A stretch of 64,000 bases of DNA from a virus, in IMG/VR virus record IMGVR_UViG_3300020204_004581, one strand, 5' to 3'. The notes beneath the pieces were generated by a model. It saw only the letters and a list, made by a program, of their open reading frames with translations, was not told the DNA's origin and did no database searches. Positions 51,412-54,699 of the stretch are shown here, piece by piece. The position numbers and the translations under genes are program-made. Every line of letters starts with the position of its first letter. The first letter of the stretch is position 1.

Positions 51412-54400
51412 ATGAAAAAAACAATCATGATGTCACTTTTATCCTTGTTCGTGACTCTCACATCTTTCGGGCAAATCACAACTTCTGCCCTGTCTGGTGT
51501 GGTGAAAAATGAAAAAGGAGATGCTTTAGTGGGAGCGTCAGTACACGTAGTTCACCAACCAACTGGTTCTGAATATCGTGCTACTACAAACAAAGTGGGT
51601 ATCTTCACCCTTCCTGCTGTGCGTCCTGGTGGTCCTTATGTGGTTCACGTCTCGAACGTGGGTTATAAAAAGGAAGAACTTATCGATATCAACACAAACC
51701 TTGGTATTACAACTACCTTGAATATTGTGTTGATTGAAGATGCTAAGGTCTTGTCCGAAGTAGTTGTTAGTACAAACAGAAACAACGTTTTCAGTAAGGA
51801 CAGAACAGGTTCGTCTCAGCAGTTTGGTAGAAGGGAACTTACTTCTGTTCCCATCACTGGTGCGAGAACAATTGACGGAATCACAAAGTACAACCCGATG
51901 GGTGACGGTCGTTCATTCGGAGCTGCTGATAGCAGACTGAACAATTTCACTATTGACGGTTCTCAGTTCAACAATGGCTTCGGTCTTGGTTCTTCAGCTC
52001 AGGCTGGTGGTAGAACCGGTTCGACTGCAATCTCTTTGGATGCGATTGACCAACTTCAAATCAACGTAGCTCCATTTGACATTCGTCAGAGTGGTTTTGT
52101 TGGTGCGGGTATCAACGCTGTAACAAGAAGTGGTACTAACAAAGTTGAAGGTTCTTATTATCAGTTCAACAGAGACAACCAACGTTATGTTGGTAACAAC
52201 GCAAAAGGAACAACTGTAACTGCATCCAAGTTCCAAGAAACAACAAGAGGTTTCAGATTAGGTGCTCCAATTATCAAAAACAAATTATTCATTTTTGGTA
52301 ACTACGAAACACTCGAAAAAACTGAACCTGGTACAACTTGGATTTCACAAGGTTCACCTTTGGCTGGTTCTCAAATCTCAAGAGTTTTGTATTCTGATAT
52401 GAAAACTCTTTCAGATTTTATGAGAACAAATTTTAATTATGAGACGGGTCCTTGGGAAGGGTACAACAACTCAAATAAGTCTGAGAAATTTCTCGTGAGA
52501 GCAGATTGGAACATCAACGACAAACACAAATTGACAGCTCGTTATGTGTGGCACAACTCTGATGCGGAAATCAACATTTCCAATTCTCAGTCAGCAGGTG
52601 CTGGTAACAGAACCACACAATTTAACGCGATGTCTTTCAAGAATAGTGGTTATATCATAATGGATAACACACGTTCAAGTGTCTTGGAGTTGAATTCAAA
52701 GTTCTCCAACACTGTTCACAACAATTTGATTGTTGGTTATGACAAACAAATTGAAAATAGAGCATATTTGGCAAAGATGTTTCCAACTATTGACATAATG
52801 AACGGTACCGCGACCTACACTTCGGTAGGTTTCGACCCATTCACACCAAGTAACAAGTTGGATTACAACACTTTCCACATTACAAATAACTTGACCAAGT
52901 TTATGGACAAGCATACATTTGTGGCTGGTGTAAATTTCGAAAAATATCGTTCTAATAACTTATTCTATCCCGCTTCAAACGGTGTGTATATCTTCAATTC
53001 ACTTGCAGATTTTTACACAGCAGCTAATCAATCATTAGCAAACGGTGGTAGACCTTCAACTCTTGCTCCTGCAAGATTCCAACTTCGCTATTCAGCACTT
53101 CCTGGTGGAATCGAACCATTGCAAGTTTTGAAAACATCTCGACTTGACCTTTATGTTCAGGATGAGTATCAGTACAACGCTAACTTGAAACTTACTGGTG
53201 GTTTGAGAGTAGCTGTTATTGGGTTCGAAAACACAGCACTCGAAAACAAAGCTGTTACAGCAATGACTTTCGCTGGTGGTGAGAAATTCAATACAAGTGT
53301 ATTACCAAAAACTCAGGTTCTTTTCGAACCAAGATTTGGTTTTAACTACAATCACAAAGGTCAGAATGATTTACAAGTAAGAGGTGGTTCAGGTGTATTC
53401 ACAGGAAGACCTCCTTATGTATTTGTATCTAATCAAGTGGGTAATAATGGTGTTTTGACAGGATTTATTGATGTATCAGGTCCGGCAGCTGCAAACTACG
53501 GTTTCACAGCTAACCCTAACCAATACTTTATCCCCTCTACACCAACGCTTCCTTCTACTTTTGACTTAGCTTTTACTGATCCTAACTACAAGTTCCCTCA
53601 AGTATGGAAATCCAACCTTGCTGCAGACAAGAAGTTACCATACGGATTTATTGGAACCGTAGAACTTATGTACAACAGATTTGTAAACGCTGTTCATTAC
53701 TACAATGCTAACTTGGATGTTCCTGTGGGAGTATTCAATGGTCCTGACAAAAGACCCGTATTCGCAAGAAACGATGCTGGCGTAAGAGTAAATGACAACG
53801 TATCAATGGGTGCAGTTTTAACAAACAGAAACGGAGCGTTTAACACATCCGCAACTGTGGAGTTAAAATACCCTGTACAGAAAGGTCTTTGGGGTTCACT
53901 CGCTTGGACTACATCACTTTCAAAAGATTACATGAGTGCTGGTTCAATTGCTTCTGGTTCTTGGCAGTCAGCAAGAGCTATCAACGGAAACAATGACCTT
54001 CCTTTAGCTTTCTCTGATAACTGGATTCCTAACAGAGTTGTTGGTCTTCTTGGTTATAAATTGGAGAATGGTGCAAAGAAAGGCGCTGGCGCTACAACAA
54101 TCACATTAGGTTATGTAGGACAACAAGGTAACCCATTCAGCTACTTCGTAGCGGGTGACCTAAACGGTGATAGAGTAAATAACAATGAACTTATCTTTGT
54201 TCCAAACAAAGCTACGGACATCAAATTTGCTCCATTCACATCAGGTGGTGTATCGTTCACTGAAGCTCAACAACAAGCTGCATTTGACGCATACATCGAC
54301 CAAGACAAGTATCTCTCTACAAGAAGAGGTCAATACGCTGAGAGAAACGCTCTCACAATCCCAATTTTACAAAGATTTGATATCTCTGTACAACAAGATT

Positions 54401-54699
54401 TCTTTATTGACATCAAAGGTAGCAGAAATACATTCCAACTCAGATTGGATATCTTAAACTTCGGAAATATGTTAAACAAAGATTGGGGCGTATCTCAAAG
54501 AGCTACAAACCCTGCAATCCTTAGCTATTCATCAACTAACACAGCTGGTGAACCTGTCTATAGATTGTCAACTCAACCAATCCTCAACGCAAACGGTACA
54601 ACTTCTGTAGGTCTCATAAGAGACACATATCAGTGGAATACTTCAGTGTTTGATGTATGGCAAGGTCAACTCGGTTTAAGATATATCTTCGGAAGATAA
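51412..54699 (+). CDS. TonB-dependent outer-membrane receptor (Oar-like, N-terminal carboxypeptidase-regulatory-like domain)
   Basis: Signal peptide ending FGQ; G.V....G..L.GASV; L.EVVV TonB box; plug NNFTIDG...ISLDAI...GF.GAGINAVTRSGTN; barrel ending QLGLRYIF. Confidence 0.93.
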   Translation: MKKTIMMSLLSLFVTLTSFGQITTSALSGVVKNEKGDALVGASVHVVHQPTGSEYRATTNKVGIFTLPAVRPGGPYVVHVSNVGYKKEELIDINTNLGITTTLNIVLIEDAKVLSEVVVSTNRNNVFSKDRTGSSQQFGRRELTSVPITGARTIDGITKYNPMGDGRSFGAADSRLNNFTIDGSQFNNGFGLGSSAQAGGRTGSTAISLDAIDQLQINVAPFDIRQSGFVGAGINAVTRSGTNKVEGSYYQFNRDNQRYVGNNAKGTTVTASKFQETTRGFRLGAPIIKNKLFIFGNYETLEKTEPGTTWISQGSPLAGSQISRVLYSDMKTLSDFMRTNFNYETGPWEGYNNSNKSEKFLVRADWNINDKHKLTARYVWHNSDAEINISNSQSAGAGNRTTQFNAMSFKNSGYIIMDNTRSSVLELNSKFSNTVHNNLIVGYDKQIENRAYLAKMFPTIDIMNGTATYTSVGFDPFTPSNKLDYNTFHITNNLTKFMDKHTFVAGVNFEKYRSNNLFYPASNGVYIFNSLADFYTAANQSLANGGRPSTLAPARFQLRYSALPGGIEPLQVLKTSRLDLYVQDEYQYNANLKLTGGLRVAVIGFENTALENKAVTAMTFAGGEKFNTSVLPKTQVLFEPRFGFNYNHKGQNDLQVRGGSGVFTGRPPYVFVSNQVGNNGVLTGFIDVSGPAAANYGFTANPNQYFIPSTPTLPSTFDLAFTDPNYKFPQVWKSNLAADKKLPYGFIGTVELMYNRFVNAVHYYNANLDVPVGVFNGPDKRPVFARNDAGVRVNDNVSMGAVLTNRNGAFNTSATVELKYPVQKGLWGSLAWTTSLSKDYMSAGSIASGSWQSARAINGNNDLPLAFSDNWIPNRVVGLLGYKLENGAKKGAGATTITLGYVGQQGNPFSYFVAGDLNGDRVNNNELIFVPNKATDIKFAPFTSGGVSFTEAQQQAAFDAYIDQDKYLSTRRGQYAERNALTIPILQRFDISVQQDFFIDIKGSRNTFQLRLDILNFGNMLNKDWGVSQRATNPAILSYSSTNTAGEPVYRLSTQPILNANGTTSVGLIRDTYQWNTSVFDVWQGQLGLRYIFGR

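What the first reader, a model, noticed from the sequence alone, without database searches (positions are those of the whole stretch)
51412..54699. Intact 1095-aa TonB-dependent receptor in a phage genome
Seen: a complete Oar-like TBDR with signal peptide, its own leader and terminator, no SusD partner, and frequent AAC/TTC/TAC codons like the MCP gene. It sits directly after the 3' end of tmRNA and is flanked by phage genes. Inference: it is an auxiliary nutrient-uptake gene (PhoH in the window hints at phosphorus limitation), or it remodels the outer membrane for superinfection exclusion. A beta-barrel transporter of this size is unusual phage cargo.
Basis: partly seen in the sequence, partly recalled or inferred. 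Interest (0 to 1): 0.72.

Follow-up and report, generated by a model that had tools for sequence, protein, structure and literature searches.

The report
Phage-borne TonB-dependent outer-membrane transporter
A giant lake-type phage of Bacteroidota really does carry an intact bacterial outer-membrane import channel, kept under strong selection and wired to the phage's own late promoter, but such phage-borne channels are already catalogued and what this one transports remains unknown.

Summary
ORF 51412-54699 encodes a complete Oar-subclass TonB-dependent transporter: signal peptide, CarboxypepD_reg domain, TonB box, plug and a barrel of about 22 strands. It lies 220 nt after a phage tmRNA and has its own terminator.

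It is not a chimera and not decaying. The same junctions recur in at least 24 independent viral contigs, no interrupted copy was seen, and dN/dS is 0.06-0.15 (plug 0.03).

New here:
- The gene is accessory cargo in a variable slot just 3' of the phage tmRNA. In relatives the slot holds this gene, a second Oar-type transporter (43% identity), a third transporter type with a lipoprotein partner, unrelated genes or nothing.
- It carries the phage's late-type promoter box TATTTATA and uses codons like the capsid gene.
- Its clade mixes phage and chromosomal copies (Sediminibacterium, Cytophagales). Phage monophyly is rejected.

The most likely function is TonB-powered nutrient import. A phosphorus link is only indirect, and surface remodelling or superinfection exclusion is not excluded.

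Phage-encoded 22-strand transporters were catalogued in a 2026 preprint. This scan had already met this family on other phage DNA (16 windows, 11 genomes). Verdict: new member of a known kind, moderate interest.

The parts
50769..51191 (+). Phage tmRNA gene. It marks the left edge of the variable cargo slot.
   Evidence: Found by ARAGORN and Rfam RF00023 (85 bits, full length). It is conserved at this place in relatives with and without a transporter.
51252..51280 (+). Sigma-70-like promoter TTGACA-17-TATACT at the start of the leader.
   Evidence: It matches the consensus at 11 of 12 positions. The -10-like TAnnTTA core is invariant in 11 related phages. Function is not shown, and Bacteroidota promoters usually differ.
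51354..51382 (+). Conserved leader hairpin (TCCCG...CGGGA) followed by a T-rich run. It looks like a terminator or attenuator.
   Evidence: It is conserved in alignment A2, with a compensatory CCCC/GGGG change in L018. Analogous hairpins precede the gene in group-B phages and before the second transporter type.
51383..51390 (+). TATTTATA box, the phage's late-type promoter motif, 21 nt before the ATG.
   Evidence: The 8-mer lies upstream of 27 of 145 ORFs against 0.8 expected. Of 32 genome-wide occurrences, 27 lie within 80 nt upstream of an ORF, including the portal and head-operon genes. It falls in an invariant block of the leader.
51412..54699 (+). TonB-dependent transporter gene, 1095 aa. 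Signal peptide aa 1-21; CarboxypepD_reg domain 27-107; TonB box LSEVVV 114-119; plug about 133-262; barrel about 263-1095.
   Evidence: Shown. The AlphaFold2 model has pLDDT 86 and pTM 0.81. Foldseek gives FusA at E 6e-39. VIA-align gives Z 30-35 to whole transporters, with BtuB residues 6-594 aligned.
54724..54750 (+). Intrinsic terminator: 8-bp stem, 5-nt loop, T-run.
   Evidence: Read from the sequence and found by the terminator scan.
46733..50685 (.). Conserved left flank of phage genes: ClpB-like ATPase (+), peptidase (-) and a 347-aa protein (-).
   Evidence: Annotated by Pfam and PHROGs. The genes are syntenic in related viral contigs.
54765..57084 (+). Conserved right flank: a 106-aa ORF, a 116-aa ORF, tRNA-Arg and a 497-aa phage protein.
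   Evidence: Shown. These genes serve as downstream markers in relatives that lack the transporter.

Best explanation
The gene encodes a functional, host-derived TonB-dependent outer-membrane transporter of the Oar subclass. A jumbo phage of freshwater Bacteroidota carries it as mobile accessory cargo in a variable slot just 3' of the phage tmRNA.

Shown here: complete architecture, strong purifying selection, a phage promoter box, and exchange between phages and bacteria.

Inferred mechanism: the gene is transcribed from the phage's late-type TATTTATA promoter, and perhaps also from an upstream sigma-70-like promoter through an attenuator hairpin. The protein is exported by host Sec, folded into the outer membrane by host BAM, and powered by host TonB-ExbBD. 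It then imports a scarce, bulky nutrient into the infected cell.

The substrate is unknown. A phosphorus-containing compound is the leading guess, but only on indirect grounds.
For: **Architecture**
- Signal peptide, CarboxypepD_reg domain, TonB box, plug and barrel are all present.

**Selection**
- dN/dS between phage copies is 0.06-0.15, the same as between bacterial copies.
- The plug is the most constrained part: 0.034 in phages against 0.033 in bacteria.
- The TonB box is conserved in all copies.

**Phage context**
- 41 viral loci carry the gene, and no internally broken copy was seen.
- Identical junctions recur in at least 24 contigs.

**Expression signals**
- The phage promoter box TATTTATA precedes the gene, and codon use resembles the capsid gene.

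**Exchange with cells**
- Chromosomal Sediminibacterium and Cytophagales copies are nested among phage copies and kept under the same constraint.
- The AU test rejects phage monophyly.

**The slot**
- Related phages hold two other transporter types in the same slot.
- One of these is a transporter-lipoprotein pair whose bacterial counterparts sit beside PhoBR-like and PHO4/PhoU-like genes.

**Literature**
- An Oar-type orphan transporter (Fjoh_3841) and the Fjoh_0545/0546 pair are induced by phosphate depletion in F. johnsoniae (PMC8115612).
Against: - No expression or transport data exist.
- No TonB, ExbB, SusD or PstS was found in the 149-kb record, though it is only about half of the genome.
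- Genes flanking 32 chromosomal homologues give no substrate clue. RibBA and a PF00756 esterase recur; phosphatases do not.
- Orthology to Fjoh_3841 could not be tested. Flavobacteriaceae members in my tree are only about 35% identical.
- A late-class promoter is not the obvious timing for a metabolic booster.
- The gene is absent from about half of the closest relatives with an assessable slot (21 of 50 lack any transporter), so it is dispensable.
Confidence: 0.55

Rival explanations
1. Receptor-landscape remodelling. The abundant late-made barrel changes the surface of the infected cell. It could block or divert superinfecting phages, replace a host receptor that the phage shuts off, or protect progeny from sticking to debris.
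For: - The late-type promoter and high-expression codons fit a protein made in bulk late in infection.
- The slot swaps between three transporter types, and alleles move between phages: ClpB is 88% identical to L028, but the transporter is 93% identical to the L002 type and 75% to L028's. This resembles arms-race cargo.
- The 2026 preprint proposes this role, citing lambda Lom, which blocks LamB.
Against: - The plug and TonB box are the most conserved parts and are as constrained as in cellular copies. A passive mask would not need them.
- Bacteria keep the same gene in ordinary metabolic neighbourhoods.
- No partner or exclusion gene was recognised nearby.
Confidence: 0.22
2. Outward conduit. 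Like Myxococcus Oar, which is needed to secrete the protease PopC, the channel exports a phage protein such as a peptidase, or helps breach the outer membrane at lysis.
For: - It has the Oar-subclass architecture.
- It has a late-type promoter.
- Peptidase genes lie nearby: 48769-49608, and M23 peptidases at 43523-45529 and 59185-60390.
Against: - Only one experimental precedent exists.
- The nearby peptidases are conserved in relatives that lack the transporter.
- Bacterial orthologues have no constant partner.
Confidence: 0.08
3. Passenger DNA or artefact: an assembly chimera with host DNA, or a recently captured gene with no role for the phage.
For: - GC (0.40) and GC3 are above the phage mean, ranking 3rd and 4th of 82 genes.
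- The gene is accessory.
Against: - The same junctions occur in many independent assemblies.
- A phage promoter box lies in an invariant leader.
- Codon use is like the capsid gene, and unlike the bacterial orthologue (GC3 0.22).
- Purifying selection acts across phage lineages as far apart as 70% identity.
Confidence: 0.02

Closest known systems
Phage-encoded beta-barrel outer-membrane proteins of huge phages, including 22-strand TonB-dependent receptors of Lak phages (bioRxiv 10.64898/2026.10.24.761521). Also the single BFVD entry 'TonB-dependent receptor SusC, uncultured marine phage' (A0A8D9FQQ5).
   Same: - A large phage carries a host-type 22-strand transporter.
- It is patchily distributed and related to host homologues.
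- Freshwater is a major source.
   Different: This is a specific Oar-type family of freshwater Bacteroidota phages. Three points are not in the passages of that preprint that I read (I searched it by terms only): its place in a tmRNA-flanking cargo slot shared with two other transporter types, its late promoter box, and its nesting with Sediminibacterium chromosomal copies.
Oar of Myxococcus xanthus, the Oar subclass of TonB-dependent transporters (PMC6434023).
   Same: It has a signal peptide, a CarboxypepD_reg N-terminal extension, a TonB box, a plug and a 22-strand barrel. It is 300-400 aa longer than typical transporters.
   Different: No sequence comparison with Oar itself was possible. 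Oar's known role is secretion of PopC, and no PopC-like partner is present here. The organisms belong to different phyla.
Phosphate-depletion-induced outer-membrane transporters of Flavobacterium johnsoniae: the orphan Fjoh_3841 (PF13620 only) and the Fjoh_0545/0546 transporter-lipoprotein pair in the phoBR operon (PMC8115612).
   Same: - Fjoh_3841 has the same recognisable domain content and likewise stands alone.
- The alternative slot cargo (an 825-aa transporter with PF13715, PF07715 and PF14905, plus a lipoprotein) matches the Fjoh_0545/0546 architecture and a Pho-type bacterial context.
   Different: - Orthology of this gene to Fjoh_3841 is untested because the sequence was not retrievable.
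- Flavobacteriaceae relatives are only about 35% identical.
- Chromosomal homologues of this gene show no Pho context.
Solved TonB-dependent transporters FusA (4zgv), YddB (6ofr), PirA, BtuB and Cir.
   Same: The whole plug-in-barrel fold matches: Foldseek E 6e-39 to 1e-27, and VIA-align Z 30-35 with 517-681 residues aligned.
   Different: Sequence identity is 10-16%. These structures lack the N-terminal CarboxypepD_reg domain. Their substrates (ferredoxin, siderophores, B12) cannot be transferred to this protein.

Membership tests
TonB-dependent transporter superfamily | N-terminal Sec signal peptide | tested here: met
   The N-terminus reads MKK, a hydrophobic core, then SFG|Q. It is conserved in phage and bacterial copies. 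No dedicated predictor was available, so this is a reading of the sequence.
TonB-dependent transporter superfamily | TonB box between the N-terminal domain and the plug | tested here: met
   The motif L-x-E/D-V-V/T/I-V at aa 114-119 is conserved in all 25 aligned copies. It lies in a disordered linker, pLDDT below 50 at residues 112-124.
TonB-dependent transporter superfamily | Plug domain inside the barrel | tested here: met
   The Pfam Plug HMM gives no hit. However, the model superposes on whole transporters including their plugs: BtuB 6-594 onto model 94-1093, Z 34, 525 residues. The plug also has the lowest dN/dS.
TonB-dependent transporter superfamily | 22-strand beta barrel | tested here: met
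   The AlphaFold2 model (pLDDT 86) has about 22-23 long strands after residue 246. PF25183 scores E 2e-47, and Z is 30-35 to solved barrels. The strand count was read from the DSSP list, not from coordinates.
TonB-dependent transporter superfamily | C-terminal aromatic beta-signal residue | tested here: inconclusive
   The protein ends RYIFGR. Relatives end RYIF, RYIFN or RYIFGK. The Phe is conserved but is not the last residue in the phage and Sediminibacterium group.
TonB-dependent transporter superfamily | Transport that depends on TonB-ExbBD | not testable with these tools
   This needs experiments. The phage record has no TonB or ExbB of its own.
Oar subclass | CarboxypepD_reg (PF13620) N-terminal extension and 300-400 aa of extra length | tested here: met
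   PF13620 scores E 2e-16 at aa 27-107, and the protein is 1095 aa long. The definition comes from PMC6434023.
Oar subclass | Role in protein secretion | not testable with these tools
   No partner was recognised.
SusC/SusD-type uptake pair | Adjacent SusD-family lipoprotein | tested here: not met
   No SusD_RagB match exists in the record, and downstream ORFs have no Pfam or PHROG match. The gene is not filed as SusC.
Pho-regulon outer-membrane transporters of Bacteroidota | Orthology to a phosphate-starvation-induced transporter (Fjoh_3841) | not tested
   The sequence could not be fetched with these tools. Only the domain content is the same.
Pho-regulon outer-membrane transporters of Bacteroidota | Pho-type genomic context of cellular homologues | tested here: not met
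   Among 103 proteins flanking 32 chromosomal homologues there are no PhoBR, Pst or phosphatase genes; GDPD appears in two loci only. The other slot cargo does meet this test: PhoBR-like genes in 4 of 10 loci and PHO4 plus PhoU-like genes in 2 of 10.
Outer-membrane proteins of huge phages (2026 catalogue) | Encoded in a phage genome above 200 kb | tested here: met
   The record is 149 kb at an estimated 49% completeness. The closest syntenic relatives in the table reach 145,698 bp (L018) and 99 kb. A ClpB-flank relative (L132, 309 kb) carries no TBDR1 match downstream of ClpB, and non-syntenic group-B contigs of 209-324 kb carry the transporter. Capsid, portal and terminase genes are present.

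The most novel reading that the evidence does not exclude
The 3' flank of the phage tmRNA is a dedicated cassette site. Related jumbo phages swap at least three unrelated TonB-dependent transporter types there, behind one retained leader with two promoters and an attenuator hairpin. Together these form a horizontally mobile, phage-controlled outer-membrane uptake module, possibly for phosphorus scavenging. Its alleles move between phages and have also seeded bacterial chromosomes (Sediminibacterium).
Probability: 0.3. Interest if true: 0.6.

Novelty: new member of a known kind. Interest (0 to 1): 0.42.

Why it matters
- TonB-dependent transporters are the main nutrient gates of Bacteroidota and are common phage receptors.
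- A phage that installs its own transporter late in infection could alter nutrient flow, or phage susceptibility, of abundant lake bacteria.
- Several transporter types share one slot and move both ways between phages and cells. Phages may therefore be a route by which uptake capacities spread among freshwater Bacteroidota.
- The gene also gives a host clue: Chitinophagales or Cytophagales.
- The general phenomenon is already reported, so the value lies in these details, not in the existence of the gene.

Tried and rejected
**Sequence and family searches**
- NCBIfam and PHROGs gave no hit for the protein.
- The Pfam Plug and TonB_dep_Rec models gave no hit, even at lax thresholds.
- PDB sequence searches gave nothing, or only a weak 33-residue match to Cir.
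- The GenBank phage collection holds only one distant 30% match, in an unannotated gut contig.
- All source names for close relatives are 'hypothetical protein'.

**Regulatory RNA and integration signals**
- No riboswitch or other Rfam family lies in the leader or near six bacterial orthologues.
- No att-like repeat of the tmRNA 3' end flanks the gene, only short chance-level repeats. No integrase was recognised among the flanking proteins scanned.

**Accessory genes in the phage record**
- TonB_C, ExbB, SusD and PstS-type genes were not found. The record is about half a genome, so absence is not shown.

**Substrate clues**
- The neighbour tally around chromosomal homologues gave none.
- PhoH adjacency in Chitinophagaceae is not immediate and was judged coincidental.
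- I could not obtain Fjoh_3841 or M. xanthus Oar sequences, so no direct comparison was made.
- L130's glycosyltransferase plus metallophosphoesterase cargo was considered as a PlcP-type lipid-remodelling pair. The Pfam-level evidence was too weak to claim it.

**Other**
- The promoter-motif search in group-B phages lacked power, with only 23 kb per phage.
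Full report
**Observation.**
- The ORF at 51412-54699 (+) is real: 1095 aa with an ATG start.
- Pfam finds a CarboxypepD_reg domain (aa 27-107) and the Oar-type barrel family PF25183, E 2e-47.
- The N-terminus is a Bacteroidota-style signal peptide (MKK, hydrophobic core, SFG|Q). A TonB-box motif, LSEVVV, follows the first domain.
- A tmRNA gene ends at 51191, 220 nt upstream.
- An 8-bp hairpin with a T-run at 54724-54750 ends the gene.

**Structure.**
- An AlphaFold2 model built on 50 homologues is confident: pLDDT 86, pTM 0.81. 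Only the signal peptide and the TonB-box linker (residues 112-124) are disordered.
- Foldseek matches only TonB-dependent transporters: FusA at 6e-39, then YddB, PirA, FepA and Cir.
- VIA-align gives Z 30-35 over whole chains, plugs included. BtuB residues 6-594 align to model residues 94-1093.
- The Pfam Plug model does not see the plug at sequence level, so the plug rests on the fold.

**Is it really phage DNA?**
- The window holds capsid, portal and large-terminase genes.
- It belongs to a 149,092-bp IMG/VR virus record that CheckV estimates to be 49% complete.
- 41 viral contigs encode the protein at 68-98% identity. All partial copies stop at contig ends.
- In the syntenic group the order is ClpB-like ATPase, peptidase, 347-aa gene, tmRNA, transporter, 116-aa gene, 497-aa gene. 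This order recurs in many independent assemblies.
- A chimera is therefore excluded as far as sequence comparison can exclude it.

**Selection.**
- Nei-Gojobori dN/dS between phage copies is 0.06-0.15. Between Sediminibacterium chromosomal copies it is 0.09-0.10.
- By domain in phage copies the values are: plug 0.034, barrel 0.073, N-terminal domain 0.13, linker 0.25, signal peptide 0.35.
- The gating part of the channel is thus the most constrained.

**Accessory cargo in a hot spot.**
- I fetched relatives through the flanking ClpB-like gene (more than 599 viral matches).
- The slot state could be assessed in 50 loci: 24 carry this transporter, 5 carry other transporters and 21 carry none.
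- The tmRNA is present in relatives whatever the cargo, so the variable slot lies just 3' of it.
- The slot holds one of the following:
  - this gene;
  - a second Oar-type transporter only 43% identical, whose nearest relative is a different sequence (L100, 57%);
  - an 825-aa transporter of another family (CarboxypepD_reg, Plug, OMP_b-brl_3) with a 401-aa lipoprotein bearing the lipobox LGLLSC;
  - unrelated genes;
  - nothing, with only 567 nt between the flanking genes in L137.
- On a ClpB tree, the presence of any transporter needs at least 5 changes.
- The window's ClpB pairs with L028 (88%). Its transporter, however, is 93% identical to the L002 type and 75% to L028's, so alleles move between phages.
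- No att-like repeat was found.

**Wiring.**
- The last 190 nt or so upstream are conserved in all phages that carry this gene, whatever lies further upstream. In order, the elements are:
  - a sigma-70-like TTGACA-17-TATACT at 51252-51280;
  - a TATGA box;
  - a hairpin with a U-run, which shows one compensatory change;
  - an invariant AT-rich block.
- That block contains TATTTATA at 51383-51390.
- This 8-mer is 33-fold enriched upstream of the phage's ORFs: 27 of 145 against 0.8 expected, and 27 of its 32 genome-wide occurrences are such sites.
- It precedes the portal gene, the gene heading the capsid operon and other virion genes.
- By analogy with T4's TATAAATA, I read it as the late promoter. 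This is an inference.
- Codon use agrees with high late expression. RSCU correlates 0.93 with the capsid gene, with C-ending Asn, Phe, His and Ile codons. The Sediminibacterium orthologue has a GC3 of only 0.22.

**Origin.**
- In a tree of 102 sequences, the phage copies and a few MAG copies form one clade (SH-aLRT 96). It sits inside Cytophagales-type bacterial transporters: Cyclobacteriaceae, then Spirosomataceae.
- Three sets of copies are truly chromosomal: the Sediminibacterium cluster, L053 and L044. Their neighbours include a SusCD-GH32 locus, cytochrome oxidase, LptD and PntB.
- The Sediminibacterium cluster and L053 are nested among phage sequences, whereas L044 lies just outside the phage-containing clade as its sister.
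- The AU test rejects phage monophyly (delta lnL 306). The group was defined after seeing the tree.
- Of 301 sampled Chitinophagaceae genomes, only the query genome has the close orthologue. The next best match is 50% identical.
- At least three transfers between phages and bacteria are needed. Directions are unresolved, but nesting and patchiness favour phage-to-Sediminibacterium for that cluster.

**Function.**
- Everything fits a working, TonB-coupled channel that relies on host Sec, BAM and TonB. No TonB or ExbB was found in the phage record.
- The substrate is open. Flanks of 32 chromosomal homologues show RibBA and a PF00756 esterase, not phosphorus genes. No riboswitch was found.
- Indirect phosphorus hints:
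  - The alternative transporter-lipoprotein cargo has bacterial counterparts beside OmpR-type two-component pairs (4 of 10 loci) and PHO4 plus PhoU-like genes (2 of 10).
  - This mirrors Fjoh_0545/0546 in the phoBR operon.
  - An Oar-type orphan transporter, Fjoh_3841, is induced by phosphate depletion (PMC8115612).
  - I could not test orthology to Fjoh_3841.
- Late expression and cassette swapping also fit surface remodelling or superinfection exclusion, as a recent preprint proposes.

**Novelty.**
- Huge-phage barrel proteins, including TonB-dependent receptors, are already catalogued.
- Earlier agents of this scan met this family on other phage DNA.
- This is a new member of a known kind. 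The added detail is the cargo slot, the promoter wiring and the exchange with host chromosomes.

Noticed in passing
window 50769-51191; L128 14626-15040; L137 14634-15027: The phage tmRNA is conserved across this lineage and carries an unusually long predicted tag (GETFAKLSAIGLIREESVVAA). ARAGORN misses it, or calls a short tag, in several relatives where Rfam finds it at full length.
   Followed up: partly
L130 12871-13087: A group I intron (Rfam RF00028, 72 bits) lies where the tmRNA normally sits, and no tmRNA was detected in that relative. It may be an intron-bearing RNA gene.
   Followed up: no
whole record; for example window 37592-37619, 32938-32960, 51383-51390: TATTTATA is a highly specific upstream box: 27 of its 32 occurrences lie within 80 nt upstream of an ORF start. 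It is probably this phage's late promoter, a variant of T4's TATAAATA.
   Followed up: partly
L135 15510-19189; L126 8597-12276 (inverted); L133: The alternative slot cargo is an 825-aa transporter (CarboxypepD_reg, Plug, OMP_b-brl_3) plus a 401-aa lipoprotein. The pair is conserved in 9 of 10 bacterial loci examined, several of them next to PhoBR-like and PHO4/PhoU-like genes.
   Followed up: partly
L025 8886-9539; L026 9883-10536: A DNA/RNA non-specific endonuclease gene (PF01223) lies directly downstream of the transporter in two phage-like contigs.
   Followed up: no
L021 13383-15002: A GroEL-type chaperonin gene lies directly downstream of the transporter in a 287-kb phage contig. A family B DNA polymerase and a methylase lie upstream.
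   Followed up: no
L043 (labelled a Gammaproteobacteria MAG); L100 (252-kb 'uncultured bacterium' contig): L043 looks like a phage contig binned into a bacterial MAG: all genes are on one strand, it has a 1635-aa orphan protein and DUF5661. L100 carries the nearest relative of the second slot transporter and may also be phage.
   Followed up: partly
L064-L097 and L075, upstream of the transporter homologue: The riboflavin gene ribBA lies next to Oar-type transporter homologues in Chitinophagaceae (divergent) and in a Spirosomataceae genome (same strand). A PF00756 esterase is often downstream, and tandem transporter paralogues are common.
   Followed up: no
window 54741-54758 and 54820-54837: Two near-identical terminator tails (GGGGTTTTTTAGTAACAA) lie 79 nt apart after the transporter. 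The second falls inside the predicted 106-aa ORF (54765-55085), whose reality is therefore doubtful.
   Followed up: no
window 46733-48742: A ClpB-like double-AAA ATPase (phrog_4871, E 5e-241) matches more than 599 viral stretches. It is a useful marker gene for this large phage lineage.
   Followed up: partly
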